This document shows, piece by piece, positions 359 through 16,914 of a stretch of DNA of 64,000 bases (positions are counted from its first letter, which is position 1; the number at the start of each line of letters is the position of its first letter). The stretch is from IMG/VR virus record IMGVR_UViG_3300009678_001576, one strand, 5' to 3'. The position numbers were made by a program, and so were the translations under genes. Source of the DNA: a virus. The notes below the pieces were generated by a model. That model was not told the origin of the DNA, searched no databases, and saw only the letters and a program-made list of their open reading frames with translations.

Positions 359-2026
359 TTAGTACTCTTTCATCATTTCGTTTAGTTTTAGAAGGTCATT
401 ATATGAAATAACCGCCCCAGAAGCCGGATTTACCAATAAATTAATCATTTTAGTGTCGCCAGTCTTCCTATAATACTCATTTTCGAGTCTTTTCAGGGCA
501 TCTATGGTTGCCGAGTCTAATTTACCAGTCGTAGGTATATTTAAGAAGCTTTGGATTTTGGGTAGATCGCCACCAGTAATTGCCTGGTCTAAATCAACTC
601 CAGGTATCTTAACACCAGTCTTTAGCCCTAAGTCTATAGTTTTTTTGCTAAAATCTTCTGCCAAAGCCATTAAGTCTCGTCCTAATTGCTGGGCTTTAGC
701 TGGATCATTACTATTAGATACGACCACATCCCAGCGACTAAGGCTATTAATGATATTTGATACCTCATTCGATAATTGAGGCAGCTTATCTTGAACCGTA
801 GCAGGATTATCACCAAATTCATGTGATAGCTCAGCACTTAAAGTCTGAATTTTAGCCAAAGAGGCATTTACGCTATCGAATATTGGCTTGCCTTCGCCAC
901 CTACCTCTAGACTATTAACTTGAGCCGCCAATCTAGATGCATCTGAAGTTAATTGTTCTGGTGGATTGTCAGAGAACCAATTTAGAAGTCCGACAGCACC
1001 GACTGTTGATGCGCCTACGGCAGCTAAAGGTAATTTAAACTTTTGAGCTATTTCTTGCGGAGTAAGTCCTAATTTTTCTCTGGCTTTAACATCTGCTTTC
1101 ATTTTGCCAATAAGTTCACGAATTTTTGGACTTGGGCTTAAGCCAGGGGTCTCTAATTCTCTTATATAAGCTAAATTCTTTGGATTCTTAAGCCAAGATT
1201 CTTTAATAGGTGAGCCGTCGCCTAAACTTAATATGCGACCGTACTCTTTGATAAATCGTTTAGGGGCATCGAGATTTTGACTAGTAAGTTGTCCGGATAA
1301 TACTTGGTCTGAAATCTTTTTAACTTCATTCTTTATATTTCCATACCAACTAGTGAGGTCTTGCAATTCGGTCAATAGCGATTTGTCCATACCAGCAAAT
1401 TCAGCATTAAGATTATCTAAGTATTTGGTGGCAGCAACTATACCATCTTGTTGTAATATGTTATTTAACTCGTCCGTTTTCTTTTGTAGCGATCGTACGT
1501 AATCAAGTTTTTTGGCATTGTCAGCGCTTCTTTTTAGAAGGTCGTCCATTACGCCGCCATGGGTCATGCGGTCTCGTTGAATATCACTTAATTCCTTTTT
1601 CATTTTGTCTGACATCTTTTTAGAATTAACCAATATTCTTTCTCGTTGCGATAAGCTTTCTTCTAGTTCTTTAGCCTGTTGGAGTCTTTTGGTAAACATT
1701 CCACCAGCTTCGCCTAAGTTAGTTTCACTTCTTTTCAACTGTGACATCTGTTTAGTTATCTTGTCTCTGAATGGAGCAAGCTTTTCTCCAATAGACATTT
1801 GCATCGATTTAGGAGATTTTGCTAGTAGTTCGAATATATCATCGGTGGAATTGTCCCAACTATTAACAAGTTTCATAGCTTCTTGTGGAGGCATATAACC
1901 TCTCCACCATTTGCTGATGTTTGTTCCAGCAGATTCGCCAAGTTCGCCCAGCATTTTACCGGCCTTGGGAGCTATTTCCTCGACAGCCTTCATAATTTTA
2001 GGCCCGAGTTTCCCCAACCAGCCCAA
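359..2026 (-). CDS. Coiled-coil virion protein with a hydrophobic segment and a C-terminal peptidoglycan-binding-like motif; probably the C-terminal part of a -1 frameshift fusion with 2062..2511
   Basis: Has only a TTG start with no suitably spaced SD. The frame is open upstream to 2101. PG-binding-like LPKIQSFLNIPTTGKLDSATIDALKRLE at ~485-570 and hydrophobic LPLAAVGASTVGAVGLLNWF. Confidence 0.7.
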   Translation of the reverse strand: MGWLGKLGPKIMKAVEEIAPKAGKMLGELGESAGTNISKWWRGYMPPQEAMKLVNSWDNSTDDIFELLAKSPKSMQMSIGEKLAPFRDKITKQMSQLKRSETNLGEAGGMFTKRLQQAKELEESLSQRERILVNSKKMSDKMKKELSDIQRDRMTHGGVMDDLLKRSADNAKKLDYVRSLQKKTDELNNILQQDGIVAATKYLDNLNAEFAGMDKSLLTELQDLTSWYGNIKNEVKKISDQVLSGQLTSQNLDAPKRFIKEYGRILSLGDGSPIKESWLKNPKNLAYIRELETPGLSPSPKIRELIGKMKADVKAREKLGLTPQEIAQKFKLPLAAVGASTVGAVGLLNWFSDNPPEQLTSDASRLAAQVNSLEVGGEGKPIFDSVNASLAKIQTLSAELSHEFGDNPATVQDKLPQLSNEVSNIINSLSRWDVVVSNSNDPAKAQQLGRDLMALAEDFSKKTIDLGLKTGVKIPGVDLDQAITGGDLPKIQSFLNIPTTGKLDSATIDALKRLENEYYRKTGDTKMINLLVNPASGAVISYNDLLKLNEMMKEY

Positions 2027-2061
2027 AGGTATAGCTGTTTTATGTAAGGGACTTACCTCGT

Positions 2062-2511
2062 TTATTCGACGAGAGCCCCGTCGAAAGGGAGTTTCTCTAC
2101 ATCATCCAATAATTTTGTAGCAGCATCGGTAAGTAATTCTGCAGCTTTGTCTTCTCCATTAGCATCACAAGCATCAGCCATTTTAATTAAAGCACCAATT
2201 GCTGTAGCATAACGATGAACTAATGAGCCAGTGGGCATCTTATTTATGATTTCTATCATCTTCTTTTGATTTTCAATTTCGTTTTCTACAAGAGCGCCAT
2301 CGCCCTGGGATTCGGCAATATATACTGGTTCTGGGTGAGCAAGTTCCATAATATTCTTTTCAGGAGTCTTTAGACGTTTCTCTTCGATAGTTTTCTTATC
2401 TTCTTGGTAGGGATTTGGCGCAGGAGCAGCAGTCTTCTTTAATCCAAGAAGGTCGCCATCCTTAGCAATTTTAGCAAATTCCACCATAACATCAGAATTA
2501 TTCCAATCCAT
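2062..2511 (-). CDS. Scaffold-like leader protein (NSDVMVEFAKI leader, AHP..VE motif, helical tag)
   Basis: ORF track 149 aa; shares motifs with 5442..6230, 3110..4756 and the scaffold C-terminal region. Confidence 0.85.
   Translation of the reverse strand: MDWNNSDVMVEFAKIAKDGDLLGLKKTAAPAPNPYQEDKKTIEEKRLKTPEKNIMELAHPEPVYIAESQGDGALVENEIENQKKMIEIINKMPTGSLVHRYATAIGALIKMADACDANGEDKAAELLTDAATKLLDDVEKLPFDGALVE
2083..2089 (-). promoter_or_regulatory. Candidate -1 frameshift heptamer C CCT TTC
   Basis: Zero-frame CCT TTC re-pairs to CCC TTT, which is the frame of 359..2026. A downstream bulged stem GGGGC-T-CTCGT/ACGAG-GTAA-GTCCC can form. Confidence 0.6.
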
Positions 2512-2513
2512 AA

Positions 2514-3110
2514 TTAGCTCCTATTTTTATCTAGATTACCTAGTAGGTCAACAATATCACCCATATTTTGACCCTGAAACATTTCTTGAACGGCCTCTTG
2601 TCCAACTTCCTTAACCTTTTCTTTAGCGATTCCCTTTACCTTGTTATATATGTCGCCCGTACTAGAAGCCCCAAGTGCCATAGCAATAAACGCAAATGCT
2701 CTTAATATAAGACTTGTTATCATCTTGGCGAGCTTACCTGGGCCGCCGAATAGTCTAAAAATACCACCTAGGCCGGCAACCTTAATCATCTGTCCATTAT
2801 TATCTAATGCAGCTTTAGCCTCTAGCATACCCATAAACAAGTTATTTAGGTTATCAGCATCTTGCGGCGTAACATCACTCTTGGGACCTTTACCTAATTT
2901 CTTATCTAGCCAGGCACCAAAATCTTCTATGCCATAACCAAACCAAGAAGCAAATTTATCGATTAAGGTAAGTAATAGTCCACCAAATCCGGCAAATAAT
3001 ACAGGAGAATAGCTAATGAGCCTGAATAGATTTTCAAAAGGCCCTTCGCTGTCTCGCCATACAACCGAAACTGCTTTCAGTAAATCAGTGTTATCAGCTT
3101 GTCGTTTCAT
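2514..3110 (-). CDS. Hypothetical membrane-associated virion protein
   Basis: 198 aa with two hydrophobic segments (VLFAGFGGLLLTLI; ITSLILRAFAFIAMALGA) and an internal MIKVA motif. Confidence 0.8.
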   Translation of the reverse strand: MKRQADNTDLLKAVSVVWRDSEGPFENLFRLISYSPVLFAGFGGLLLTLIDKFASWFGYGIEDFGAWLDKKLGKGPKSDVTPQDADNLNNLFMGMLEAKAALDNNGQMIKVAGLGGIFRLFGGPGKLAKMITSLILRAFAFIAMALGASSTGDIYNKVKGIAKEKVKEVGQEAVQEMFQGQNMGDIVDLLGNLDKNRS

Positions 3111-4756
3111 TAGAATGAATAGCGCCCTTCTTTAAAATCGTCAGCAATTTCAGACCAACTCCAGTCTCTAGGTGCGCGTGCTCTATACTTTCTATAAATA
3201 TATTCACGCATAGCTTGTTCCGACATTCCCCTATCTTGTAGAAACATATATAAACTAACTTCGCGGCCCGACTTTGGATCGTTCATTATTATTGAGCGCA
3301 AACAAGCAGAAACTTCTTCTGGACTTGGATTCGCTTTGTTAGGATTACACATTACACCTTGAGTGGGGTCTTGTTGTGTTTGTAAATTAGCAGGTGCAGC
3401 AGTACCATCAGCAGAAACTACTTTCTGTAAATAAGAATACAATACCCTTACAGCATCGCTTACATTCTCAGGATTAGACATAACTTTAAAATCTACTATA
3501 GATTTTTCGTCTAAACCAGCATATTTTCTCAAATAGTCATCAAGCTCTGGAGATTTAGCAACCAAACCTGTAAATGCAGCAGCTGTATTAACACCATAAG
3601 CACCGTCTTCCTCTATTCTATCGATACCGGTTTTAAGTGCTATGTTAAGTCGATTTATCAATCTTTGTAAGAGCGTTACTTGTGGATTTTTACCAACCCT
3701 GCCACGAGTTGCACCAGGGGCCGCAGCAGATGGTGGTTCACTGGAGGTTCTAAATGCTCTCTTGGAAATATAAGGTTTGGCGCTAGCAGGCCTATTTCGT
3801 GATGGCTTTGCTTGTTGTTTTGCTTCCATTCTCTGTAAGCTATTTCTCATGCGATCTCGTAGAGCAACCATAGGAGTTACATACTGATTTATTTCTTCTT
3901 CAGTTGCTGATTCATTGATTACCTTATTTACGAAATTTCGCACAACCCTTTCGTCTATGTCGGTTTTTTCATAAATTGGCTTTTCACCAGATTGTTGTAC
4001 TCTGGCCTCAAGAGCGATAATATCCTTTGCTACATCTACCAAATCAACACCAGTTGCTTGACCCTTTTGGGCAATTAATTGTTGAGCAGCTTGTTGTGCT
4101 CGTTGTTTGATATCAGCAAGTTGCTGATTTATAGCAGCAGTAGTTTTAGTTAGAGCGTTTTCAAATTGTGTAATATCTCTTTCGTAAAAAGGATCTGTTA
4201 GCAAAGGCTTAACCTGCGGCCAAGTAAGAGCCATTTGATTCAAGTAAGTAGCTACTCTTTCAATATTTCCTAATTGTTGTCTAGCTTGATTTACGACTTC
4301 GCCAGGCTTATTTGGATCAGGAGCCATCTGTACTTGAAAATATGGAAGAAAGCTAGCAAGGTCCGTCTTCCACTTTTCAACTACGCTTTGAGCATCAGTA
4401 TCTTCATAATCTAGAGCTTCGATTCTTTCTAATAAATCCTTAACCCTATTGTCTGCGAGTCTAGTTCCCTGATAAATAGCAAACGCTACACCACCGGCTA
4501 ATAGTACCCATCCTATAGGGCCACCGGCGATTGCAGCTGCTGCACCAGCTGTTCCAGTTGCCGCGCCCGCACCAGTTAATCCACCGGCAACGCCAAAATA
4601 ACCTAAACCACCCATGAGCCCAACATCTGTTAAGGCAGTTAGACCAAGGCTGTTTGCGACATCTCCCCAGTCCCATGCTTCTTTTATCATAGGAGAGGAG
4701 TAGCCCATTATCTTGGCGTATTCCATCATTATTTCGCTATTTTCAAATTGAGACAT
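3110..4756 (-). CDS. Putative ejection or internal virion protein with a glycine-rich hydrophobic region and a peptidoglycan-binding-like domain
   Basis: NSEIMMEYAKI leader, MIKEA, Gly/Ala hydrophobic stretch at ~4470-4660, ISKRA at 3755-3769, PG-binding-like VTLLQRLIN..EEDGAYGVNTAAA at ~3575-3685. Confidence 0.75.
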   Translation of the reverse strand: MSQFENSEIMMEYAKIMGYSSPMIKEAWDWGDVANSLGLTALTDVGLMGGLGYFGVAGGLTGAGAATGTAGAAAAIAGGPIGWVLLAGGVAFAIYQGTRLADNRVKDLLERIEALDYEDTDAQSVVEKWKTDLASFLPYFQVQMAPDPNKPGEVVNQARQQLGNIERVATYLNQMALTWPQVKPLLTDPFYERDITQFENALTKTTAAINQQLADIKQRAQQAAQQLIAQKGQATGVDLVDVAKDIIALEARVQQSGEKPIYEKTDIDERVVRNFVNKVINESATEEEINQYVTPMVALRDRMRNSLQRMEAKQQAKPSRNRPASAKPYISKRAFRTSSEPPSAAAPGATRGRVGKNPQVTLLQRLINRLNIALKTGIDRIEEDGAYGVNTAAAFTGLVAKSPELDDYLRKYAGLDEKSIVDFKVMSNPENVSDAVRVLYSYLQKVVSADGTAAPANLQTQQDPTQGVMCNPNKANPSPEEVSACLRSIIMNDPKSGREVSLYMFLQDRGMSEQAMREYIYRKYRARAPRDWSWSEIADDFKEGRYSF

Positions 4757-5403
4757 TATCCAGCCCTTAGACTACGCACCACTTCTGGTGTTAGATTTGA
4801 ACGTAAGTTTTGTAATGCAATATTTCTTATATATTCGTCTCTGCTCTTATCATCTCTGAATTGAGTATTGCCAACATCAGCTACAGCTCTATCAACTTCC
4901 TGTTTCATTAACTGTTTTAATTGTGAAATGGCATTTACAGGAAGCTCTCGTACATTCTTAACTCCCATCATTTGCATAGCATGTGGGAATAAACTTAATT
5001 GAACTTGTTGTTTTACTGGCGCCCATAAATCGCCTCTTGGTGCAGCTGGCGCAGGAGCTTGTTGTTGGCCAGGCATCGGAGGCATTTCTCTATTTGCAGG
5101 TGTTGCTGGTTGCTTAGCAGCTTGCATTTGTTGATAAGCAGCCTTAGTAGCTGGGCCCCACACACCATCATCTTTTAAATAACCAGGCATTCCTGGCTTA
5201 AAACCGTGCTGTCTATTATATCTTCGTTGCCAATTTTGAACTGCTGTAGTCCCGCCGCGACCTAATCCAGTTTGTGCTGGTTTTTGGGTCTGTGGTGTTG
5301 CTGGTTGCACGGATTGTCGTGGCTCATATTCTGTTCCAGTAGGAACTGACATTGAAGCACCACTCGGATCTGTCATACCCACATCTTCACCAGGATAAGA
5401 CAT
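4756..5403 (-). CDS. Peptidoglycan-binding domain protein; probably the C-terminal part of a -1 fusion with 5442..6230
   Basis: VQNWQRRYN..LKDDGVWGPATKAA matches the PG_binding_1 pattern. The frame is open upstream through the A10 run. Confidence 0.75.
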   Translation of the reverse strand: MSYPGEDVGMTDPSGASMSVPTGTEYEPRQSVQPATPQTQKPAQTGLGRGGTTAVQNWQRRYNRQHGFKPGMPGYLKDDGVWGPATKAAYQQMQAAKQPATPANREMPPMPGQQQAPAPAAPRGDLWAPVKQQVQLSLFPHAMQMMGVKNVRELPVNAISQLKQLMKQEVDRAVADVGNTQFRDDKSRDEYIRNIALQNLRSNLTPEVVRSLRAG

Positions 5404-5441
5404 GCCGTATTCAGCACCCGCAGGCGGCTCCTCCGCAACAA

Positions 5442-6230
5442 CTATTCTTTTTTTTTTAACAGGTTATCCACCTGATTAGCATATTTCTTATAGCCTAACC
5501 TATCAAGGTCATCAGCCAATACAACTAAAACGTGGTTTAATACGTCTTCTGGAGTAGCAACCGCACGTATAATTTCCTTTAGACCATCTAATTTGTCTTT
5601 GTGGCCCATCTTGGCAAGCTTGGTATAAAGATTAACCATCGAAGCATATGTTCCCTTTGGCATTTTCTTAACAACCTCAAGGTCAGCCTTTTGTTGTTCA
5701 ACGATAGTCTCTACTAAATTATCTTTAGTTTTGCTATGAGTTAGCTCAGTTTTGGTTCCGCCACCTGGGTGTGCTTGGTTTACCAAGTCTTCACCAGTTT
5801 CGCCGGTGACATCATATTCTTTGCCTTCTTTGGCAGCCGTAACTACTTCATCACCCTCTACGCTGTTTCTTGATGGTGGCAATTGAGCAACCATAGTCTC
5901 AGCTTCTCCGGCATATTGTGGAGCTAGTAGCTTTGAGACTTGTACTTTGAACGCTGCTATTTCATTAGGATTTTTTGGAAATCGCCTAGAAAGATTAGCG
6001 ACACTTTGATTTATATGCTGATCTAATTCCTTTTTAGCTCGTTGATAGTCGCCCTTATATTTTTCCATTAACTTAGCAGAGAGTTCGTTCAATCGAACAG
6101 CCTCATCATATAAAGGATTTGCGGCCTCTTTTGTCATTTCATCGGAAGCAACTTTGACCAATCCCTGCTCCTGTGCTATACGAGCAAACTCTTTCAACAC
6201 AGTGCTCTCATCGAATTTTATATTTCTCAT
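5442..6230 (-). CDS. Scaffold-like leader protein (ESTVLKEFARI leader, AHPGG..VET motif, C-terminal helical tag)
   Basis: ORF track 262 aa with SD GGAGA; shares motifs with 2062..2511 and the scaffold. Confidence 0.85.
   Translation of the reverse strand: MRNIKFDESTVLKEFARIAQEQGLVKVASDEMTKEAANPLYDEAVRLNELSAKLMEKYKGDYQRAKKELDQHINQSVANLSRRFPKNPNEIAAFKVQVSKLLAPQYAGEAETMVAQLPPSRNSVEGDEVVTAAKEGKEYDVTGETGEDLVNQAHPGGGTKTELTHSKTKDNLVETIVEQQKADLEVVKKMPKGTYASMVNLYTKLAKMGHKDKLDGLKEIIRAVATPEDVLNHVLVVLADDLDRLGYKKYANQVDNLLKKKE
5448..5457 (-). promoter_or_regulatory. Candidate -1 frameshift or transcriptional slippage site (A10 run)
   Basis: TTA AAA AAA AAA GAA TAG. The -1 frame reads KKKRIVVAEEPPAGAEYG into the ATG at 5403. 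An SD-like AGGTG lies 11 nt upstream (5469-5473). Confidence 0.6.
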
Positions 6231-6242
6231 AGCAATCTCCTG

Positions 6243-6743
6243 TTATTTCTTCTCTGAAATATTTTCTTTCTTAAGTAGCGTCCCTTGCTCGGCAGCAACT
6301 TTAATATTTTTAGCGGCTTGTTCAATTATAAATGCAGTTTCGTGGTCGCCGTGGGCACCAGCAAAATATGCGATACTTTCTAATTTACTAATTACTTTTT
6401 CAGCAAGTTCCATTTGTGAATCCACAACTGGCTCTATTTGCGTTTCTTTCACTTCCTCAGCTTTAACTTCAGGAACTACAACTTCGGCGGTCTTGGCTTC
6501 TAGTAAGTCACCAGGAATTTTAGTCCCTTTTAAAGTGGCAAGTAATACCGAAACGCACTCTAGCATTTGATTTGGATCAGAATAATTATTAGCTACTTGA
6601 ATACCTTTTTCTATGAAGGCATCACAATCTGCCTTGGATAACAATTTGCTGGATACAATTCTATCACGCTCATCGTTAATAAGCGATAAGAATGATTTAA
6701 CAACAAATTGTCGGTCTCCCAAAAGCTCTTCTCTAATACTCAT
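6243..6743 (-). CDS. Hypothetical head-module protein with a divergent helical tag
   Basis: 166 aa, SD GGAGA; KLESIAYFAGAHGDHETAFIIE resembles the shared helix. Confidence 0.8.
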   Translation of the reverse strand: MSIREELLGDRQFVVKSFLSLINDERDRIVSSKLLSKADCDAFIEKGIQVANNYSDPNQMLECVSVLLATLKGTKIPGDLLEAKTAEVVVPEVKAEEVKETQIEPVVDSQMELAEKVISKLESIAYFAGAHGDHETAFIIEQAAKNIKVAAEQGTLLKKENISEKK

Positions 6744-6754
6744 TGTTTCTCCAA

Positions 6755-7447
6755 TTATAGCCAGATGAACTCTAAAGTTTCATTCAGGGCAGTTGGCGGC
6801 CCGGTCACCATCGCTACGCCTGGGTGAGTGGGCGTAGGTTGCCTGGTCGTTAATTGCCCGAGAGCGCTTACAAATAATACTGCATTTAAAGCATATCTCT
6901 GTGAGGTATCAAACTGATCCGTTTCATAAATACCTCTATGCACCCAAACAGTCATTCTTCCGCTACCAGCTGTTGTATTGTCGCCTGGTATGTTAGCTAT
7001 ACGATAGCTATAACTGACAACAATTCTGATGGTATCTGGAATCCCATCTCCATCTAAATCCTTGTTTAACAAGGTTCCAGCTTCAGCTGTTACTGCACCA
7101 TTAATATCATGCAATGAAATATTCTCGGTGTCAGTTGTAAAACTACTTCTTACTATACTAGCGTTATCCAATAACTGCATTACTGGGGTTGCAGAATAAT
7201 AATTGCCGTAAGCATCAGCTACACCAACGGCTGGAATATCCACTACCTCATCCACAACGGACTTGGTAAAGGCATTGGTATTGATATCGTCTATAACGCC
7301 AAATGGAGCTGTTCCATCTGAAACGCCGCAGACGATTTCATTACCCATTACTTTTAATTGCGCCACTTGTCCCGGCTGAAAGGTCGCTGTTGGATCTACC
7401 GGATAACTTACTGGCAGCGCATTTCCAATTTGAATTAAGCGCAACAT
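6755..7447 (-). CDS. Putative head decoration or structural protein
   Basis: 230 aa, beta-rich composition, located in the head module near the scaffold. It lacks the charged propeptide features of its neighbours. Confidence 0.55.
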   Translation of the reverse strand: MLRLIQIGNALPVSYPVDPTATFQPGQVAQLKVMGNEIVCGVSDGTAPFGVIDDINTNAFTKSVVDEVVDIPAVGVADAYGNYYSATPVMQLLDNASIVRSSFTTDTENISLHDINGAVTAEAGTLLNKDLDGDGIPDTIRIVVSYSYRIANIPGDNTTAGSGRMTVWVHRGIYETDQFDTSQRYALNAVLFVSALGQLTTRQPTPTHPGVAMVTGPPTALNETLEFIWL

Positions 7448-7475: not shown

Positions 7476-7865
7476 TTATTCTTCGTCGGTAGTAGTTTCA
7501 GTCTCTAGGTTTGTAACAAGTACGTTCAAAGCTTCGTCGACCAAACCAGAAGCTTCTGGGGCACCAGCAGCGTCTAATTCATCAGCAAGTTTTACCAACT
7601 CACCAACTACGCCAGCTAATACTTCAGCCTTCTTCTTCTTTTTCTTGGCCTTTGCTTTTGCTTTGTCAGCCTTCTCTTTTTCTTTTTCCTTGTCAGCCTT
7701 GGCCTTATCCTTTTCTTTCTTGGCCATTTCCTTGCACTTGCAGGGCTCTTTGCCGCACTCTTCGCATTTCTCGTCTTCTTTTTCCTTTTTGGCCGCAGTC
7801 TTATCTAAACCATTTCCCAATAGTTTGGATAGCTCAGCTACCATTTCGTCACCCATTCTAGACAT
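7476..7865 (-). CDS. Small Lys/Glu-rich head protein with helical tag
   Basis: ATG at 7865 is preferred over TTG 7871 because of AAGGAG spacing. LDKTA, CEECGKEPCKC, KEK-rich tract, ELVKLADELDAAGAPEASGLVD. Confidence 0.8.
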   Translation of the reverse strand: MSRMGDEMVAELSKLLGNGLDKTAAKKEKEDEKCEECGKEPCKCKEMAKKEKDKAKADKEKEKEKADKAKAKAKKKKKKAEVLAGVVGELVKLADELDAAGAPEASGLVDEALNVLVTNLETETTTDEE

Positions 7866-7879
7866 GTTCAAGCTCCTTA

Positions 7880-9433
7880 TTAATGTTTTAGATTTTGTAT
7901 TACTTCTTCAAGCTTATTCGCTTCGTCTACAAAACCTTTCGTTTTCAAACGAATTGATACTTTGGTTATTATATCTTTGGCCCTTAAAAAAGACAAAGAT
8001 TTTTCATCTTCTTCCTCTTCTTCTTGCTGTAAAGCTTTCTCGAAATCCTTTTGTCGCTGCGTTCGTTCTTTTTCACGCTCAGCTCTTTCTTTTTGTTCCT
8101 GGCGTTGCTCCTCGCGCTCTTGACGACTTTCCATTTTTTCTTCACTAACGTATCGTTGTTTAGATAGTAACTCAAAAATAGCCATGCGTAGAGCTTTAAA
8201 AACTTCTACCGGGTTAGCACCGGCAGTTTCAAATAATACTACTGGTTTAATTTTTGAAGACTTGCCCATAAAGGTAACTGGAAACTTAACCAAGTCAACA
8301 GTATAAATAGGGTTATCTCTAACTTTAGACTCTCCTACTTCAAAACTCCATACGTAATTCGATTCTGTTTTTTGCCAACTTCCCTCTGCTCTATCGAAAC
8401 CCATTCTTGCGCCAGGCAATTCGGCAAGAGCAGCCGATACTTCGTCTGGAATTGGACTGGTTATATAGGTTTGTTCTTCTAACTCTTGTCGTCTTTGGCG
8501 CTCTTGGAAAGCGCGTTCTTCCTCTTCGGTCGGCTCTGGCTCAACTTCAGGTAACTCCATAGGCACATTCATTGATGGGCCGACCGGAGCTTTGGCCGGA
8601 GAAGCTGGAGCAACTGATATATTGGATGGGACTGGAGGCATCGGAATATCAACAGCCTCTTTTAATAGTTTGCCTAATTTTGTTATTGATTCTAGGTCTA
8701 GTTTAGTCATAGAAAGTTTATCCGTACCTTCTTCCTTAAGAAATAATTTTTTAAAGTATGAATCATACTTGAGCATATTCAAATCCGGGTCTTGAAAAAA
8801 GCTATCGGATTGTTTAGCTCTAATAAGAAATACTAATTCGTGTAACCCTGTTCTTAACTCTTCGTCAGATAAAGCACGTAATTTAGTAGAAAAATACTTC
8901 AAGTCGTTAGTAGTCCAACCCAATTGTTTCATGGCTAGCTTGAATAGAGGTACTAGAAGATTAACAAATTCTGGTTTATCAAATATTTGTTTGCGAACAG
9001 CCTCAAGTGGATTCTTTCGTACCAAAGAGCGCCAAGCTGCCTCATCAATTTTACCAAACTCCGGAACATAGTGAAACTTATATTCAAAATATTTCTCTGG
9101 AGTATTTTCAATTATATTCATTAGCATATTGCTGGTAATCTCATTTAACTTACCAACCAAATGATATTTGTGCTTATGAACATATGATTCTGGGTCTTCT
9201 TCAGCCAGAATTTTAGCATTTCGTTTCGATATCCCGTAGCCCTTTGAAACATCAGGCTCATTGTCCTTTCTGCCAGAAATACCGGGAATGTATTCTGGGG
9301 TTCCTTCAAATTGGTCTTCTGGTCTCTTGCCAAATCCAGGTTCAAGTCTTTTCTTGAATTCTGGGTCTAATTCCTTTGCGTCCTGCTCAACCAAGGCAGC
9401 GAATTTTGATAAAATTTCGTCTCTAGTTTTCAT
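7880..9433 (-). CDS. Hypothetical head protein with helical repeats and a C-terminal helical tag
   Basis: 517 aa. PEKYF..PEFGKIDEAAWRSLVRKNP resembles polyprotein repeats. Ends with ITKVSIRLKTKGFVDEANKLEEVI. Confidence 0.85.
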   Translation of the reverse strand: MKTRDEILSKFAALVEQDAKELDPEFKKRLEPGFGKRPEDQFEGTPEYIPGISGRKDNEPDVSKGYGISKRNAKILAEEDPESYVHKHKYHLVGKLNEITSNMLMNIIENTPEKYFEYKFHYVPEFGKIDEAAWRSLVRKNPLEAVRKQIFDKPEFVNLLVPLFKLAMKQLGWTTNDLKYFSTKLRALSDEELRTGLHELVFLIRAKQSDSFFQDPDLNMLKYDSYFKKLFLKEEGTDKLSMTKLDLESITKLGKLLKEAVDIPMPPVPSNISVAPASPAKAPVGPSMNVPMELPEVEPEPTEEEERAFQERQRRQELEEQTYITSPIPDEVSAALAELPGARMGFDRAEGSWQKTESNYVWSFEVGESKVRDNPIYTVDLVKFPVTFMGKSSKIKPVVLFETAGANPVEVFKALRMAIFELLSKQRYVSEEKMESRQEREEQRQEQKERAEREKERTQRQKDFEKALQQEEEEEDEKSLSFLRAKDIITKVSIRLKTKGFVDEANKLEEVIQNLKH

Positions 9434-9660: not shown

Positions 9661-12600
9661 TTACTTCCAGCCCAATGAGCCTAGTTGGTCAACTAAACTA
9701 GATTCTGGGGATGGATTTGCACTTGCAGTAGCGGTCATAGCAGCTGAAGCAGCTTCTAGACCAACTCGTGGAAGGGTTCCGCCCTTCTTTGCGGTTGACT
9801 TGTAGTTTGCAACCACGCGCTTATTTGATTCAAACGCTGCATCATCAAAATGCATGATTTCATCAACATAAGTGTCAAGTGAATCACGAGTGCCGGATAT
9901 TAGTCCTTTTTCTTGAGCCTGTATGGCAATGTCATAAGCTCTTCGTAACTTGAGCTTATAGTTATTGTCAGATGCTTCTTTCTTGCCCTTAGCAAATTCC
10001 TTGCTTAAGTCCGCACCAAAGCTTCCGGCTTGTGGAGCCTGTGCGAAATATTTCTTCCAATAGGCAGCAGCAGCGCTGTCGACTTTGCCTTCTGCAACTA
10101 GTCTCTCAACGTCTTCTGCTTTTACAGCACCTTCAACAATCTTTTCCTGAAGTACGGCTGCGGCTTCACGAACATTACGTGGGCCTGATTCAGCAACGTC
10201 TCTCATTACTTCATGAACTTCAGAAATAGTTTCAACCTTGGCTTCTTGGGTCTTTGTGCTAGTTAGTTCAGTCACAGTTCCCTTTCCACCTGGATGAGCC
10301 TGGAAGTAAGTTGGCTCGGTAGCATTTTGTGCTTTACCTAGGTCCAACTCATATTTACCAAGTACGCCTTCAGCACGAGCAACTAAAGCCTCGCGAGCTG
10401 TTTTGCGTGATGCAACTACTGGAGCGCCTGGAGCCATTCCGGCACCAGCAGCCATTGGGTCAGCAGCCATCATGCAATCTTGAGCATGACCTTCTGGACC
10501 ACAAGCACACATTTCTGGTGCAACGTCTGCCATCATAGCATCATCTTCTTTGTCTTCCTTCTCATCCTCTTCTTCGCCCTCTTCGACTTCGACATCTTCC
10601 TCGTCGTCATCATCCTTTTTCTTGTCTTTAGCCATATCTGCAGCTAAATCAGGATGCATTTTCCCACCTTCTGGGCTCATCTCGGACTTTTCATCCTGCA
10701 AGAGCTTCTTTAGGTCATCTTCAGTCTTTGGATCAAGGGCCAAGTCGGCATCCTCACCATACATACCCATTGCCGCCTTTAATAAAGCTGCGCGATTTTG
10801 TGCGCGAACCTTAAGGGCGTCGTCGAGTAGTTTTTGAGCTTCCGCTTTCTTGTCATCTTTATCTTCTTTCTTGTCCTTCTTGTCTTCCTTTTCTTTCTTC
10901 TCAGCCTTTTCCTCTTTCTTATCTTTCTTGTCGGCCTTCTCTTCTTTGTCTTCTTTCTTATCTTTCTTAGCCTTAGCAGCTTCGATAACTATATTAGCTT
11001 CGGTTAGGACTACGTCGCTATCTGCCAATACATCGGCAGCAGCCTTTAACAACTTATCCTTATTTCCAGCTTCTACTTTATCTAGACCTTCTAGGGTTTC
11101 GCTAACTAATGCAAGTTCATCAGCAGCGTCATTCAATAGTGACTCTACCTTAAGAGCATCTTCACGGAATGATAGAACTTTATCCATTGGGCCCTTTTCG
11201 CCGACATTAACATCAACGTCAACTAAGCCCGAGCCCTCTTTGCCTAATAGGTCACGGAGTTCTGCAATTTTTTCTTCCATTGTGCTTAATGCAGCGTTTA
11301 CTTTTTCAAGATTCACGCCCTCAGCCTTTGGAGCTTCTGCTGGTGCAGCCGCTGGTGCTGGAGGAGGAAGTTCTGCTGCTGGAGCAGGTGCCGCTGGGGC
11401 TGCAGCTTCTGGAGCTGCTGGCATCATTGGGTCTTGTGCGCCCTTCAATAGATATGCTACTTGATCAAAACCTTCTGTACGGATCATCTTAAGAACGTCT
11501 GAACCGTATTGCTTTGAACTAAAGTAATCCCAGTTGTCGTCTAGTTCGTCTTCATAAACTTCGGAACCAGCCGCGCTTAAGATTAATTGGTCGCCAGCGT
11601 AGATGTCCCAACGGGATGCATCTTTTACTAGATTGCCCTTTTGGTCTGCTACTTTAACGAGCTTGGCTCGTAATTTGGCACGTAGCAATTTCTTCTTAAC
11701 TTCCATATCGCCAGGAAATGCGCCATCAGTTCCGCCCATATTGTCGGGGGCCTGCATGTGCTTGTCCTCGTTATTGCGAATCTTATCTGCTTCTTCCTTT
11801 GGATACTTTACTTTGCCTGGGGTCGGTTCATTTAAACCGCCACCACCGAGCCAATAGGCTCTGCGTTTCATTCTACGGTCTTCGAGTTCGGCTGTAGTAA
11901 GACCATCTTGGTTTTCCTCAGCACGTAACAATTTCTTCTTAACTTCTTCGTCACCCGGATGCAGACCTTCGCTACCTGTCTCTAATGGTTCGCCAACCAT
12001 TTGCTTATCTTCACTGTCGCGAATAGAATCGGCATCCTCTTTTTCGTATTTTGGCTTACCTGGGGTTGGTTCATTAACACCACCACCGCCAAGCCAATAT
12101 GCGCGTCGAGCTTTCGCTCTTGCGCGTAGTCTCGCTGAATTCATATTGTTCTCCTCCTTAGAGATTAATGTTTTGAGCTCATTAAAAGCATTGTTCATAT
12201 TTTTTACTTTATTGCGAAGGAGGCTTAACTCTTGTGAGAGTGCATCCTGGGTTAGGTTTTCGCCTCCTACTTTCTGGCTAGCAAATCTTTGAGGAACTTC
12301 TGTCTCAAAGGGCGGCCAACCAACTTTACCGCTATCGTTTTCTAGAGATTGCTTTTCATAGCCTTCTCCACCACCGATAGTGGCTCGTGCGTCATTTGCG
12401 GCAGCAACTGGGGCCGCTTCAGGTGCTGGAACTGGGACAGGAGCCGCTGGTTCCATTAATTCAGATTCACCTAATAGTAATTCTTTAATCTGTGCTTTAA
12501 TCTTTGCTACTTCTTCTTTAGCATTTGGGTCAGTTTCTAAAGCCTTGAGAGCAGCAACTAACTCGCCCAAGTCAGCATTATTAGCAGTCGCGGCCTTATT

Positions 12601-13497
12601 CATTCCCATCAAACCGCCAATTCTCTTTTGCATTTCAGCAACAGAATCAGACAATTGTTGTAATTCAGTTGGATTTACACAACGATCAGCCTTCAATTGT
12701 TCGATACGTGCAGTTTTTTCCTGAACATATTGATCCATGCTGGCAATAACGTTTCTAATTTTAGCGAGACCGTCGGCGCCATTAACAACCAAACTCAATT
12801 CAATTGGGTTTAAGTCCAAGTTAATTTCGCCATAGTGTGAGCGGCTCTTGATGCAATTGCAATATTCTTTTTCAACTGCGGCAACATTGGAACATTCAGT
12901 GCAAACTGAACGACCAACGGCAGTCCCCATTGATACACAATTAGCATAACCGGTTTCTACTTTACGAGCTAGGTCCGCATAATTCTTGCGATCTAATGCA
13001 AAAAGCGCATGAACGCGCTTAAATTTAGGATCATAATAAGTATCTATAACAATGCCACGAATACCATCTACGCTATCAGACTTGTGGTCTTTGCAAAGAG
13101 GTTTGCCTACCCATTTCTTGTAAGCTTTTAACAATTCAGCTTCTGGGAATATATCACCATTAGCATTTTTATAGGGCTTAACGTCATCGGGAGATATCCA
13201 CTTAACTGATTCTCGCCCGCCTTTAATCTTTATCGTTTCAAAATAACCTTTAGATGGCTCACCCTTCTTATTCTTTACGGGTTCGCCAGTTTCCTGATTG
13301 ACTAGGGATGCTTCGGCGGCATGCATCATAACCGCATGACCGTATAGGAAATCTTCAGCCTTTGGGGCAATTCTCTTTAGAGTTTTGGCCATCTTCACAA
13401 AACGTTTAGCTATTTCTAAATCAGCTAATGCTTCTTTGGGTTGAAGTATATTTTCTTCGGAGAATGAAAGATTCTCACCAAACTTATTAATCGCCAT
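9661..13497 (-). CDS. Prohead maturation protease fused to scaffolding protein
   Basis: The N-terminal ~250 aa carry NANGDIF..EL, KDH (His), VSMG (Ser), GEINLDL..IELSLV..AD, the pattern of caudoviral or herpes-fold prohead proteases. The remainder is charged, Pro/Ala-rich coiled coil. Confidence 0.85.
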   Translation of the reverse strand: MAINKFGENLSFSEENILQPKEALADLEIAKRFVKMAKTLKRIAPKAEDFLYGHAVMMHAAEASLVNQETGEPVKNKKGEPSKGYFETIKIKGGRESVKWISPDDVKPYKNANGDIFPEAELLKAYKKWVGKPLCKDHKSDSVDGIRGIVIDTYYDPKFKRVHALFALDRKNYADLARKVETGYANCVSMGTAVGRSVCTECSNVAAVEKEYCNCIKSRSHYGEINLDLNPIELSLVVNGADGLAKIRNVIASMDQYVQEKTARIEQLKADRCVNPTELQQLSDSVAEMQKRIGGLMGMNKAATANNADLGELVAALKALETDPNAKEEVAKIKAQIKELLLGESELMEPAAPVPVPAPEAAPVAAANDARATIGGGEGYEKQSLENDSGKVGWPPFETEVPQRFASQKVGGENLTQDALSQELSLLRNKVKNMNNAFNELKTLISKEENNMNSARLRARAKARRAYWLGGGGVNEPTPGKPKYEKEDADSIRDSEDKQMVGEPLETGSEGLHPGDEEVKKKLLRAEENQDGLTTAELEDRRMKRRAYWLGGGGLNEPTPGKVKYPKEEADKIRNNEDKHMQAPDNMGGTDGAFPGDMEVKKKLLRAKLRAKLVKVADQKGNLVKDASRWDIYAGDQLILSAAGSEVYEDELDDNWDYFSSKQYGSDVLKMIRTEGFDQVAYLLKGAQDPMMPAAPEAAAPAAPAPAAELPPPAPAAAPAEAPKAEGVNLEKVNAALSTMEEKIAELRDLLGKEGSGLVDVDVNVGEKGPMDKVLSFREDALKVESLLNDAADELALVSETLEGLDKVEAGNKDKLLKAAADVLADSDVVLTEANIVIEAAKAKKDKKEDKEEKADKKDKKEEKAEKKEKEDKKDKKEDKDDKKAEAQKLLDDALKVRAQNRAALLKAAMGMYGEDADLALDPKTEDDLKKLLQDEKSEMSPEGGKMHPDLAADMAKDKKKDDDDEEDVEVEEGEEEDEKEDKEDDAMMADVAPEMCACGPEGHAQDCMMAADPMAAGAGMAPGAPVVASRKTAREALVARAEGVLGKYELDLGKAQNATEPTYFQAHPGGKGTVTELTSTKTQEAKVETISEVHEVMRDVAESGPRNVREAAAVLQEKIVEGAVKAEDVERLVAEGKVDSAAAAYWKKYFAQAPQAGSFGADLSKEFAKGKKEASDNNYKLKLRRAYDIAIQAQEKGLISGTRDSLDTYVDEIMHFDDAAFESNKRVVANYKSTAKKGGTLPRVGLEAASAAMTATASANPSPESSLVDQLGSLGWK
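11677..12108 (-). repeat. Two 63-aa internal repeats in the scaffold (RRAYWLGGGG.NEPTPGK...PGD.EVKKKLLRA)
   Basis: Copies at 11920-12108 and 11677-11865, each 189 nt. Confidence 0.9.
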
Positions 13498-16545: not shown

Positions 16546-16914
16546 TTATTTGGTTTTTCTACTTGATAACCATTCTGGGGTAAGTCTTCGTTTGCTTATT
16601 TCTTGTGGCGCTTCCTTAAAACGAGGCTGAATAACTATTACATCATATTGCCCGGCAGACCTAATTGCAGCAACATAATAAAAATCATGGGATTTGCGTA
16701 TTTCACCAACTTCGCCAGACTTAAGAATAAAGCGATGTATGGGTTGAGCGCCTTTAAAATCGCCCGCAATCATAGTATTTAATTGAGCATTTGGGCCAAG
16801 CATCTGCGGCAAGCGCTTTTGCGTATAATAATTGCGCCAATATCTGCGAACGCTGGAACTTACTCCAACACCTACTGTGCTTTTTTCAATACCTGCTAGT
16901 TTAGAAATATGCAT
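16546..16914 (-). CDS. Basic hypothetical protein with an N-terminal ISKLA motif
   Basis: 122 aa; MHISKLAG at the start and ISKRR near the C-terminus; translationally coupled to the Nudix gene. Confidence 0.8.
   Translation of the reverse strand: MHISKLAGIEKSTVGVGVSSSVRRYWRNYYTQKRLPQMLGPNAQLNTMIAGDFKGAQPIHRFILKSGEVGEIRKSHDFYYVAAIRSAGQYDVIVIQPRFKEAPQEISKRRLTPEWLSSRKTK

What the first reader, a model, noticed from the sequence alone, without database searches (positions are those of the whole stretch)
359..6230. Three peptidoglycan-binding proteins share the same N-terminal leader only if both frameshifts occur
The leader motif (N/E)S-x-(V/I)-x-x-E-(F/Y)-A-(K/R)-I opens 2062..2511, 3110..4756 and 5442..6230. 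PG-binding-like motifs lie in 359..2026, 3110..4756 and 4756..5403. With the two -1 shifts, all three products have the architecture leader, K-x-A site, cargo with PG-binding domain. Inference: a set of ejection proteins whose copy number relative to abundant short leaders is set by frameshift efficiency.
Basis: partly seen in the sequence, partly recalled or inferred. Interest (0 to 1): 0.75.

Follow-up and report, generated by a model that had tools for sequence, protein, structure and literature searches.

The report
Frameshift-fused capsid cargo in a megaphage
In the head-gene block of an uncultured ~468-kb phage, two conserved ribosomal slip sites join small scaffold-like carrier proteins to larger proteins carrying cell-wall-binding modules, much as retroviruses make Gag-Pol, which probably loads a set amount of cargo into the capsid.

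Summary
The N-terminal leader occurs exactly three times in the 64-kb six-frame translation, each time at the start of an ORF (5442-6230, 3110-4756, 2062-2511). It is significant by profile comparison.

Both -1 frameshifts are strongly supported by comparison with eleven related metagenomic loci:
- The downstream ORF is always in the -1 frame.
- An in-phase slippery heptamer is kept at nearly every junction: an A7-A10 run at A/B; CCCTTTC, TTTTTTC or CCCTTTA at E/F.
- A conserved bridge peptide (VSPL-x-K-x-A) lies where no start codon exists.
- Some relatives encode the same proteins as in-frame fusions (P0007, P0023, P0186, L011).

The peptidoglycan-binding calls fail Pfam's threshold on single sequences. 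A profile of the B/C core, however, retrieves 6,653 proteins, and all 50 tested carry PG_binding_1. The third protein (359-2026) has a weaker, fold-level match.

A conserved K-x-A motif follows every leader and is enriched in head-module proteins, so it is probably the prohead-protease cut site.

Packaging, cleavage, ejection and stoichiometry are inferred, not shown. This scan noted the same theme in another phage-G-like genome. Phage G's record annotates a frameshifted lysin at the same position. I rate it a new variant of a known kind.

The parts
5442..6230 (-). Carrier gene A (262 aa). It has the leader, a motif shared with the protease-scaffold protein (residues 152-192), a C-terminal helical tag, and ends LLKKKE-stop.
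   Evidence: 29 homolog clusters found; 17 short forms end in KKK plus at most 4 residues. Similarity to protease-scaffold residues 1066-1107, E 6e-6. SD-like AGGAG lies upstream of the start.
6147..6230 (-). Leader of A (residues 1-28), ending in LVKVA (the K-x-A site).
5448..5457 (-). A10 run. It is the slip site A_AAA_AAA in the zero-frame phase TTA AAA AAA AAA GAA TAG.
   Evidence: Longest homopolymer in the window. An A7-A10 run in the same phase, 4-16 nt before the stop, is present in 9 of 9 loci.
4756..5463 (-). Cargo ORF B. The -1 frame is open from 5463, and the fusion product reads from 5448 to give 491 aa. The called ATG at 5403 has no SD-like motif.
   Evidence: In-frame A-B fusions exist: P0007, P0023, and the 661-aa A-like fusion protein of L011, whose extension sits at the B position.
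5095..5265 (-). PG_binding_1-like core of B (first two helices; V..WQ..YN...DG.WG..T..A).
   Evidence: hhalign B vs C core 94.7%. Profile search gave 6,653 hits, and 50 of 50 tested carry PF01471. hhalign vs a reference alignment 98.5%. AF2 pLDDT 86-90 for residues 50-100.
3110..4756 (-). Gene C (548 aa). It reads leader, K-x-A, Gly/Ala-rich membrane-like segment (69-95), coiled region, ISKRA, PG_binding_1-like core, then a C-terminal domain. No frameshift is needed.
   Evidence: phrog_2335 tape-measure partial hit, E 7e-6.
4676..4756 (-). Leader of C (residues 1-27), ending in MIKEA.
   Evidence: The C orthologs in L006 and L010 lack the leader and begin right at K-x-A|WTW.
3755..3769 (-). 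ISKRA motif inside C (residues 330-334), just upstream of the PG-like core.
   Evidence: Conserved as [IL]SKRA or IEKQA in all six orthologs. The hydrophobic-x-K-x-A motif is enriched in head-module ORFs.
3530..3703 (-). PG_binding_1-like core of C.
   Evidence: hhalign 98.3%.
2514..3110 (-). Gene D (198 aa) with two membrane-like segments. Orthologs start with [IL]SKRA.
2062..2511 (-). Carrier gene E (149 aa), a paralog of A. It has the leader, the AHP motif and a helical tag, and ends ..KLPFDGALVE-stop.
   Evidence: blastp against A262, E 6e-5. Family hits.
2428..2511 (-). Leader of E (residues 1-28), ending in LKKTA.
2083..2089 (-). Slip site C_CCT_TTC (zero-frame codons CCT TTC).
   Evidence: An in-phase X_XXY_YYZ heptamer is present in 7 of 8 frameshift-type loci: CCCTTTC, TTTTTTC or CCCTTTA.
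2027..2082 (-). Bridge, read only in the -1 frame: RRGSRRINEVSPLHKTAIP. The K-x-A site (LHKTA) lies at 2033-2047.
   Evidence: The bridge peptide ..SPL-x-K-x-A is conserved in 7 frameshift loci, and in frame in the natural fusion P0186. In L001 the TTG at 2026 is the synonymous Leu codon CTT, and a 3-nt indel keeps the frame.
359..2101 (-). Cargo ORF F. The -1 frame is open from 2101, and the fusion product reads from 2083 to give 717 aa. It has coiled-coil regions, one membrane-like segment and a C-terminal domain.
   Evidence: No SD-like motif precedes TTG 2026 or ATG 1993.
362..592 (-). C-terminal domain of F, with a partial PG_binding_1-like motif (IQ.FL...TGKLD..T...L at about 470-560).
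   Evidence: Pfam best E among orthologs 0.0081. hhalign 84.9% over 29 columns. Foldseek top hits are proMMP prodomains, E > 2. The VIA top 10 of 48,161 chains are all chains of cell-wall enzymes or binders that I recognise as carrying a PG-binding domain, Z 3.5-5.6.
9661..13497 (-). Context: the 1278-aa protease-scaffold fusion. This is the presumed enzyme that cuts at K-x-A.
   Evidence: phrog_18299 head maturation protease, E 5.5e-12. 33% identity to Bacillus phage G gp19.

Best explanation
Two paralogous carrier genes sit in the head module: A (5442-6230) and E (2062-2511). Each ends in a conserved programmed -1 frameshift site.

Most ribosomes stop and make the short carrier. It consists of an N-terminal leader, a K-x-A site, a scaffold-like motif and a helical tag. 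A fraction of ribosomes slip, at the A10 run in A and at C_CCU_UUC in E. They read on into B (4756-5463) or F (359-2101), giving 491-aa and 717-aa carrier-cargo fusions. Gene C (3110-4756) has the same layout without a shift.

Shown here:
- The slip sites, the frames and the bridge peptides are conserved.
- In-frame fused orthologs exist.
- The leaders are homologous.
- B and C carry a divergent PG_binding_1 module, and F carries a PG_binding_1-like C-terminal domain.
- The hydrophobic-x-K-x-A motif follows every leader, sits in the E-F bridge, and is enriched in head-module proteins.

Inferred:
- The leader and carrier take the fusions into the procapsid, as the T4 capsid targeting sequence or retroviral Gag-Pol does.
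- The protease domain of 9661-13497 cuts at K-x-A and frees the cargo.
- The cargo (B, C and F, with D) leaves with the DNA and acts at the cell envelope.
- Slip efficiency sets the ratio of cargo to carrier.
For: Frames and slip sites:
- A/B: 9 of 9 loci have the -1 frame, with an A7-A10 run in phase and an overlap of only 13-34 nt.
- E/F: 8 of 8 loci have the -1 frame, and 7 of 8 have an in-phase heptamer.

Bridge is translated:
- The bridge peptide ..SPL-x-K-x-A is conserved where the zero frame has stops and no start codon exists.
- In L001 the window's TTG 'start' is the synonymous Leu codon CTT, and an indel of 3 nt keeps the frame.
- There is no SD-like motif before B or F, although A, C, E and the neighbouring gene 6243-6743 each have one.

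Natural in-frame fusions:
- A-B: P0007 and P0023.
- A family plus other extensions: P0011, P0022, P0024, P0028.
- E-F: P0186, with LPF...RVSPLNKSA at the junction.
- L011 has both fusions in frame.
- In fusions without the KKK run, the junction reads L[LI]K-x-A.
- 17 of 29 A-family clusters end in KKK plus at most 4 residues.

Background: only 3 of 19 ORF pairs with a -1 downstream frame have an in-phase heptamer, and A10 is the longest homopolymer in the window.

Leader: exactly 3 hits in 64 kb, and profile matches up to 97%.

K-x-A motif:
- It follows the leader in all 20 orthologs inspected.
- Hydrophobic-x-K-x-A occurs 60 times against 27.0 +/- 4.9 expected in head-module ORFs, but 10 against 12.2 in the replication genes.

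PG_binding_1.

Protease.

Membrane-like segments in C, D and F.
Against: - No protein, RNA or virion data exist for this uncultured phage, so no fusion product, cleavage or packaging has been seen.
- No conserved downstream stimulatory RNA structure was found. z-scores ranged from -3.6 to +1.7 and the folds differed among loci.
- The upstream SD-like AGGTGG is present in only 3 of 9 loci.
- L010 lacks a canonical heptamer at E/F, and its F ortholog has its own ATG. The E-F link is therefore not universal.
- The C orthologs in L006 and L010 lack the leader, so the leader is dispensable in some lineages.
- No single sequence reaches Pfam's PG_binding_1 cut-off.
- The B model shows two helices, not three.
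- F's structural matches have low Z, 3.5-5.6.
- The PG_binding_1 fold also serves as a protein-binding prodomain in matrix metalloproteinases, so fold alone does not show that these proteins bind peptidoglycan.
Confidence: 0.72

Rival explanations
1. At the A/B junction the shift is made by RNA polymerase, not the ribosome. Slippage on the A7-A10 run adds one A to some transcripts, and normal translation of those gives the fusion. This changes the mechanism at one site only. The products and their role stay the same.
For: The run is 10 A in the window and 7-10 A in relatives. From general knowledge, homopolymer runs of about 9 or more are slippery for bacterial and phage RNA polymerases. No conserved RNA stimulator was found.
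Against: The run is in the A_AAA_AAA phase in 9 of 9 loci. L010 keeps only A7, which is short for polymerase slippage. The paralogous E/F site uses CCCTTTC or CCCTTTA, which can only work on the ribosome. Phage G's analogous site is A_AAA_AAG.
Confidence: 0.25
2. There is no recoding. A, B, E and F are separate genes, and B and F start at their own internal start codons (ATG 5403; TTG 2026 or ATG 1993), perhaps by re-initiation after the upstream stop.
For: Gene callers annotate them as separate genes in every metagenome. In L010 the F ortholog has its own ATG overlapping the end of E.
Against: The peptide upstream of any start codon is conserved. The window's TTG is replaced by a non-start Leu codon in L001. 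Slip heptamers are conserved in phase. There is no SD-like motif before B or F. In-frame fusions exist in relatives.
Confidence: 0.05
3. The splits are assembly or sequencing errors in homopolymers, or the genes are decaying pseudogenes.
For: A10 runs are prone to indel errors on some sequencing platforms.
Against: The same -1 arrangement is found in independent assemblies from ENA, JGI and Logan samples, across 36-96% protein identity. The E/F site is not a long homopolymer. The downstream ORFs are long, open and conserved.
Confidence: 0.02
4. The frameshift fusions are real, but the products are not ejected envelope-crossing proteins. They could be internal core or scaffold components that are degraded during maturation. 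They could also use the PG_binding_1-like fold as a protein-protein module, as in metalloproteinase prodomains.
For: The carriers share a motif with the scaffold protein. Foldseek's best matches for F are proMMP prodomains. B and C keep only the first two helices of the domain.
Against: The B/C profile pulls out cell-wall hydrolases with tandem PG_binding_1 repeats, and nothing else among the 50 tested. C, D and F have membrane-like segments. This matches processed ejection proteins such as SPN3US gp47 (PMC5694885). In phage G the same genomic position holds a frameshifted amidase/LysM lysin.
Confidence: 0.2

Closest known systems
T4 capsid targeting sequence (CTS) on internal proteins, and the N-terminal propeptides of phiKZ/SPN3US head and ejection proteins (Mullaney and Black 1996, as summarised in PMC5694885)
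   Same: A short conserved N-terminal peptide is shared by otherwise different head proteins. It ends at a motif repeated in many head proteins, and a prohead protease is encoded nearby. At least one mature cargo protein has a membrane segment near its new N-terminus, as SPN3US gp47 does.
   Different: The motif here is hydrophobic-x-K-x-A, not the cut-after-Glu motif of T4, phiKZ and SPN3US. The protease is related to phage G gp19 and actinophage prohead proteases. Two of the three cargoes receive the leader only through a frameshift from a separate carrier gene. No cleavage has been shown here.
Retroviral and totiviral Gag / Gag-Pol made by -1 frameshifting
   Same: A structural carrier is made in bulk. 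A minority -1 frameshift product extends it with cargo, and a viral protease later separates the parts. Stoichiometry is set by slip efficiency.
   Different: This is an analogy only; there is no sequence relationship. The cargo here is non-enzymatic proteins with PG-binding-like modules, not polymerase. Two parallel carrier-cargo pairs exist, and the packaging itself is inferred.
Bacillus phage G genes 22/23 (NC_023719, annotated joined CDS 'endolysin')
   Same: It lies at the same place in the genome, between the protease gp19 and the major capsid protein gp27. It has a -1 shift on Lys codons (GTA AAA AAG TAG) a few bases before the stop, and its products target peptidoglycan.
   Different: The upstream part in phage G is an amidase plus LysM enzyme, not a leader-bearing scaffold-like carrier. 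There is no shared leader or K-x-A bridge. I found no sequence similarity to A, B, E or F (one search found no phage match for C).
Lambda-type tail assembly chaperones G/GT and other frameshifts in phage structural genes (T7 10A/10B)
   Same: A conserved -1 slip near the end of a structural gene yields a short major form and a long minor form.
   Different: Here the site is in the head module, not the tail module. There were no hits to chaperone families. The long forms carry a separable, swappable cargo flanked by a putative protease site.
PG_binding_1 (PF01471) domains of cell-wall hydrolases and phage endolysins such as phiKZ gp144
   Same: The B and C cores align to profile positions 1-45 with the hallmark residues (Q, N, DG, G, T, A). 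The F C-terminal model superposes on PG-binding domains including phiKZ gp144.
   Different: Scores are below Pfam's cut-off. B and C lack the third helix. There is no attached hydrolase domain. The proteins are encoded in the head module.

Membership tests
Programmed -1 ribosomal frameshift site | Slippery heptamer X_XXY_YYZ in the zero-frame phase | tested here: met
   A_AAA_AAA at 5457-5448 and C_CCT_TTC at 2089-2083.
Programmed -1 ribosomal frameshift site | A long -1 ORF opens just before the site and lacks its own initiation signals | tested here: met
   Overlaps are 22 and 40 nt, and the -1 ORFs are 235 and 580 codons. No SD-like motif precedes B or F.
Programmed -1 ribosomal frameshift site | Site, phase and frame relation are conserved in diverged relatives | tested here: met
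   9 of 9 loci at A/B. At E/F, 8 of 8 share the frame relation and 7 of 8 have a heptamer. A-family protein identity goes down to about 36%.
Programmed -1 ribosomal frameshift site | Orthologs exist in which the two parts are one in-frame gene | tested here: met
   P0007, P0023, P0186 and the L011 661-aa protein.
Programmed -1 ribosomal frameshift site | Stimulatory element: a downstream structure or an upstream SD-like sequence | tested here: inconclusive
   Local hairpins appear in some loci, including a 9-bp stem abutting CCCUUUC in the window and L001. There is no common fold and the z-scores are mixed. AGGTGG is present in 3 of 9 loci.
Programmed -1 ribosomal frameshift site | The trans-frame protein is detected | not testable with these tools
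   The phage is uncultured and no proteome is at hand.
PG_binding_1 (PF01471) | A sequence reaches Pfam's gathering score (23 bits) | tested here: not met
   Best scores were 14 bits for B and 13 bits for F, with no hit for C. The best ortholog E-values were 0.058 and 0.0081.
PG_binding_1 (PF01471) | Profile-level homology to bona fide members | tested here: met
   This holds for B and C. The 58-column profile gave 6,653 hits at E <= 1e-3, and 50 of 50 tested carry PF01471 at the matched positions. hhalign gave 98.5% and 98.3%. For F, hhalign gave only 84.9% over 29 columns.
PG_binding_1 (PF01471) | Three-helix fold | tested here: inconclusive
   The B model has two confident helices, and searches with the whole model were dominated by its C-terminal bundle. 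For the F model, the top 10 of 48,161 chains are all chains of cell-wall enzymes or binders that I recognise as carrying a PG-binding domain, but Z is only 3.5-5.6.
PG_binding_1 (PF01471) | Binds peptidoglycan | not testable with these tools
   Needs a pull-down or binding assay.
Capsid targeting propeptide (T4 CTS / giant-phage propeptide type) | A conserved short N-terminal peptide shared by several head-module proteins | tested here: met
Capsid targeting propeptide (T4 CTS / giant-phage propeptide type) | The peptide ends at the prohead protease's cleavage motif and is removed | tested here: inconclusive
   K-x-A follows the leader in all 20 orthologs inspected, and the motif is enriched about 2.2-fold in head-module ORFs. 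Leaderless C orthologs start at the motif. Cleavage itself was not observed.
Capsid targeting propeptide (T4 CTS / giant-phage propeptide type) | Cleavage after Glu by a T4 gp21-type protease | tested here: not met
   The motif here is K-x-A. The protease matches phrog_18299 and phage G gp19, not a T4-type family. It therefore works like a CTS but is not a member of the T4 system.
Tail assembly chaperone G/GT | Located between the tail tube and tape measure genes, with chaperone family membership | tested here: not met
   The genes lie between the protease-scaffold gene and (in relatives) the major capsid gene. There are no chaperone hits.
Tape measure protein | Full-length match to a tape-measure family, in a tail-gene context | tested here: inconclusive
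   C has a partial phrog_2335 hit (E 7e-6, residues 62-314). F has a weak TMP_3 hit (E 0.008). Both cover Gly-rich or coiled regions, and the context is the head module.

The most novel reading that the evidence does not exclude
A clade of phage-G-like megaphages loads its capsid with envelope-acting proteins by a Gag-Pol-like scheme.
- Small scaffold-like carriers are produced in bulk.
- Two independent -1 slip sites append exchangeable cargo to a set fraction of them.
- A K-x-A-specific prohead protease then releases the cargo inside the head.
- Evolution toggles each junction between a frameshift (KKK or CCCUUUC) and an in-frame K-x-A linker.

If true, this would be a portable, tunable rule for packaging proteins into large capsids.
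Probability: 0.5. Interest if true: 0.75.

Novelty: new variant of a known kind. Interest (0 to 1): 0.64.

Why it matters
How giant phages fill their heads with dozens of internal and ejected proteins in defined amounts is poorly understood. The known models rely on propeptides (T4, phiKZ, SPN3US).

Here the sequence evidence points to a second layer of control. Recoding sits at the end of scaffold-like carrier genes, occurs twice in one head module, and is conserved across a clade of 330-480-kb phages. Relatives have replaced the slip site with an in-frame protease-type linker.

This gives three things:
- A concrete, testable rule for cargo stoichiometry.
- Corrected gene models: two 'orphan' ORFs are really the C-terminal parts of 491-aa and 717-aa proteins.
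- A candidate cleavage motif for an uncharacterised prohead protease family.

Phage G is cultivated and has a frameshifted lysin at the same position, so it offers an experimental entry point.

Tried and rejected
- Known phages: tblastn of C548 against 50,697 phage records gave no match. The search for related loci in IMG/VR gave nothing. No whole genome is held for the window.
- The ENA contig with the 61% relative could not be read as DNA, so its junctions were judged from its proteins only.
- Single-sequence Pfam and PHROG scans gave only sub-threshold PG_binding_1 hits.
- A profile of the B family found nothing among PDB sequences.
- Foldseek and VIA searches with the whole B215 model were uninformative. 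Foldseek's best E was 1.4. VIA's rows covered only the generic C-terminal helical bundle (residues 119-215, Z <= 7.8), so the PG-like core was not tested structurally.
- hhalign of the F core against the B and C cores was not significant (E 0.44 and 0.026).
- Downstream RNA stimulators: per-locus folds showed no shared structure. A hand-drawn pseudoknot for the window's E/F site was not supported by relatives other than L001.
- TAG read-through at 5442-5444 adds only about 22 residues and does not reach B (read). The +1 frame closes after 14-18 codons at both sites.
- Literature searches for frameshift-coupled capsid cargo loading in phages found no description.
- I did not run complex prediction. 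No binding claim here rests on it.

Full report
**Setting.** All genes in the first 42 kb of the window lie on the minus strand and form a phage head module.
- ORF 9661-13497 (1278 aa) begins with a head-maturation protease domain. It matches phrog_18299 at E 5.5e-12 and has 33% identity to Bacillus phage G gp19.
- The longest contig carrying these proteins is 468,312 bp. Relatives sit on contigs of 327 and 481 kb.
- Downstream of the protease gene, in transcription order, lie:
  - 7880-9433, 7476-7871 and 6755-7447;
  - G (6243-6743);
  - A (5442-6230, 262 aa);
  - B (4756-5403, 215 aa);
  - C (3110-4756, 548 aa);
  - D (2514-3110, 198 aa);
  - E (2062-2511, 149 aa);
  - F (359-2026, 555 aa).
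- In relatives the order A-B-C-D-E-F is conserved. It is followed by a ~230-aa gene and a 341-aa gene with a weak Phage_capsid_4 hit.

**The leader.**
Even the loose core E[FY][AS][KRS]I finds only these three sites. Each lies at residues 5-17 of A, C or E.
- It is conserved in the orthologs of all three genes.
- Profiles of the first 34 residues match across families: A-E 97.2% (E 3e-11), C-E 95.1% (E 3e-8), A-C 82% (E 1e-5).
- In all 20 orthologs inspected the leader is followed by K-x-A, for example LVKVA, LKKTA, MIKEA.
- Two C orthologs that lack the leader start right at the motif: MKKTA-WTW in L010 and ..IHKTA-WTW in L006. This is what one expects if the mature protein begins there.
- The motif hydrophobic-x-K-x-A occurs 60 times in head-module ORFs against 27.0 +/- 4.9 expected from shuffling. 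In the replication genes of the same window it occurs 10 times against 12.2 expected.

**The A/B frameshift.**
- A ends TTA AAA AAA AAA GAA TAG (5459-5442). The -1 frame opens at 5463 and runs 235 codons to 4756.
- The A10 run is the longest homopolymer in the window.
- Nine loci were compared (the window and L002, L004-L010; L003 repeats L002). A-protein identity ranged from 96% down to 36%.
  - The downstream ORF is always in the -1 frame.
  - An A7-A10 run always stands in the A_AAA_AAA phase, 4-16 nt before the stop.
  - The -1 frame always opens only 13-34 nt before that stop.
- Of 29 A-family clusters, 17 end in ..VD.LLKKK plus at most four residues.
- Longer members are in-frame fusions:
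  - P0007 and P0023 continue into B-like sequence.
  - P0011 and P0028 keep KKK and read on.
  - P0022, P0023, P0024 and the 661-aa protein of L011 have L[LI]K-x-A at the junction instead.
- B's called ATG has no SD-like motif, whereas A, C, E and G do.

**The E/F frameshift.**
- E ends ..CTC CCT TTC GAC .. GAA TAA. The -1 frame opens at 2101 and runs 580 codons.
- Eight loci share the -1 relation. Seven have an in-phase heptamer at the same place:
  - C_CCT_TTC in the window, L001 and L008;
  - T_TTT_TTC in L005;
  - C_CCT_TTA in L006 and L009.
- The peptide encoded in the -1 frame between the slip site and the first possible start codon is conserved: PFRRG.. then [VI]SPL-x-K-x-A-[IA]P[LI]G. 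The zero frame there contains stops.
- Against L001 (83% protein identity):
  - the window's TTG 'start' is CTT, a synonymous Leu and not a start codon;
  - the only indel in the bridge is 3 nt;
  - about 60 nt around the site are nearly invariant.
- P0186 (702 aa) is a natural in-frame E-F fusion that reads ..NLPFDYGTCDKDSRVSPLNKSAISL.. at the junction.
- Its contig L011 also carries the in-frame A fusion.
- L010 is the exception. It has no canonical heptamer, and its F ortholog has its own ATG.

**Background rate.** Among 57 minus-strand ORFs of at least 100 aa, 19 have a long downstream -1 frame. Only three of these have an in-phase heptamer inside the overlap: the two sites above and CCCTTTA at 16953.

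**What A and E are.**
- They are paralogs (E 6e-5). Homologs of A also hit E in both the leader and the C-terminal domain.
- A residues 152-192 match protease-scaffold residues 1066-1107 (AHPGG..TELT..VETI, E 6e-6).
- Both end in a helical tag of the form LAD.LD..G....A..VD.
- They are therefore small scaffold-like proteins rather than bare leaders.

**The peptidoglycan-binding calls.**
- Single sequences do not reach Pfam's threshold. Even so, PG_binding_1 is the recurrent top weak hit in all three families: 2 of 8, 3 of 6 and 3 of 8 members, with a best E of 0.0081.
- The B and C cores are homologous to each other (hhalign 94.7%, E 6e-8). They share invariant Q, N, D, G, T and A residues.
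- A 58-column profile of 13 B and C cores was searched against 1.84 billion representative proteins. It found 6,653 proteins at E <= 1e-3.
  - The top ten are cell-wall enzymes or binders with 3-9 PG_binding_1 repeats that coincide with the matched stretches.
  - Forty further hits all carry PF01471.
- Against a reference alignment cut from those hits, hhalign gives:
  - B 98.5%;
  - C 98.3%;
  - F 84.9%, over 29 columns that correspond to the last third of the domain.
  - The reference alignment includes a few family relatives, so the B and C values are somewhat inflated.
- AlphaFold models:
  - B has two confident helices in the core, with pLDDT 86-90.
  - The F C-terminal domain has pLDDT 65-89 over residues 55-125 of the 125 modelled.
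- For the F model:
  - Foldseek's recurrent best matches are proMMP prodomains, with 25-28 columns, 40-48% identity and E > 2.
  - The Foldseek-independent VIA search ranks ten chains first out of 48,161: SltB3, 4xxt, an L,D-transpeptidase, SleB-N, the AP3 endolysin, a C. difficile PG-binding protein, 1lbu, SleC, phiKZ gp144 and CtpB, at Z 5.6-3.5. I recognise all ten as proteins that carry a peptidoglycan-binding domain; not every entry title says so.
  - Each score is weak on its own, but the uniform family identity is not.

**Other features.** C, D and F have membrane-like segments, while A, B and E do not. C carries an internal ISKRA just upstream of its PG-like core. This is conserved as [IL]SKRA (or IEKQA) in all six orthologs. 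D orthologs start with [IL]SKRA.

**Mechanism.**
- Shown here: two conserved -1 recoding sites, the fused reading frames, the shared leader, the K-x-A motif and the PG_binding_1-like modules.
- Inferred:
  - The leader, the carrier or both take the fusions into the procapsid alongside the abundant short carriers.
  - The protease cuts at K-x-A and releases B and F, and trims C.
  - The released proteins leave with the DNA and act at the wall and membrane.
- These inferences rest on analogy with three precedents:
  - T4 capsid targeting sequences;
  - the processed ejection proteins of phiKZ and SPN3US (PMC5694885);
  - Gag/Gag-Pol in retroviruses, from general knowledge.
- At the A run I cannot tell ribosomal slippage from polymerase slippage. 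The E/F heptamers can only be ribosomal.
- No conserved stimulatory RNA was found.

**Comparison with what is known.**
- Frameshifts in phage structural genes and propeptide-targeted head cargo are each well known.
- Phage G's GenBank record already annotates a joined CDS, genes 22/23, between its protease and its capsid gene. I confirmed that it is a -1 shift at GTA AAA AAG TAG, which extends an amidase-LysM protein with a second lysin domain.
- This scan also noted a tag, cleavage motif and frameshift theme in another phage-G-like genome (e1-5390265).
- What appears new is the combination of:
  - paralogous scaffold-like carriers;
  - two slip sites in one module;
  - a putative protease site in the bridge;
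  - evolutionary switching between frameshift and in-frame K-x-A junctions.
- I found no paper describing this.

**Verdict.** I classify it as a new variant of a known kind, with interest 0.64.

Noticed in passing
window 16947-16953 (minus strand), end of ORF 16914-17450: This is the third in-phase slippery heptamer (CCCTTTA) in the window. It lies inside a 43-nt overlap with a -1 ORF (16546-16914) and is the only other such case among 19 ORF pairs with a -1 downstream frame. The downstream gene has its own ATG overlapping the stop, so it may be chance.
   Followed up: no
L010:6848-9007: In this relative the B and C orthologs are in the same reading frame, separated only by a stop codon and one further codon. 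C lacks the leader and starts MKKTAWTW. Stop-codon read-through or a recent split of a B-C fusion is possible.
   Followed up: no
window 1-42300 vs 42300-64000: Hydrophobic-x-K-x-A occurs 60 times in head-module ORFs (27 expected) but at the expected rate in the replication genes. The strict form [ILVMF]SK[RKL]A occurs 12 times against 0.
   Followed up: partly
window 5655-5777 and 10177-10302 (minus strand): Carrier A residues 152-192 and protease-scaffold residues 1066-1107 share the motif AHPGG..TELT..K...VETI (50% identity over 42 residues). E has a diverged copy. Its role is unknown; it could be a coat-binding or protease-docking element.
   Followed up: partly
L012:4366-6035 (Bacillus phage G, record 19865-21534): Genes 22/23 are annotated as a joined CDS. 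gp22 is an amidase plus LysM protein ending VLKVKK-stop with GTA AAA AAG TAG. The -1 frame continues for about 310 codons into a second lysin-like domain. The pair lies between protease gp19 and capsid gp27.
   Followed up: partly
P0183, P0184, P0185 (E-family homologs): Some E-like carriers carry Cys-rich, zinc-ribbon-like extensions. These sit at the N-terminus in P0183 and P0184 and at the C-terminus in P0185. Carriers can therefore be fused in frame to other modules.
   Followed up: no
L005:5904-6689; L011:6814-7578 and 8139-9233: LAGLIDADG homing-endonuclease genes are inserted within the head modules of two relatives.
   Followed up: no
L002:1063-1252 and L003: The carrier here is 96% identical to A. 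The -1 ORF after the A8 run nevertheless starts with a different sequence from the window's B, and looks more like the N-terminal extension of L004's B. This suggests indel or module turnover right after the slip site.
   Followed up: no
window 4756-5118 (B residues 119-215): The C-terminal part of B is predicted as a helical bundle with pLDDT about 80. Its best structural matches are sigma-factor region-2-like bundles at Z <= 7.8, which is within the noise for helical folds.
   Followed up: partly
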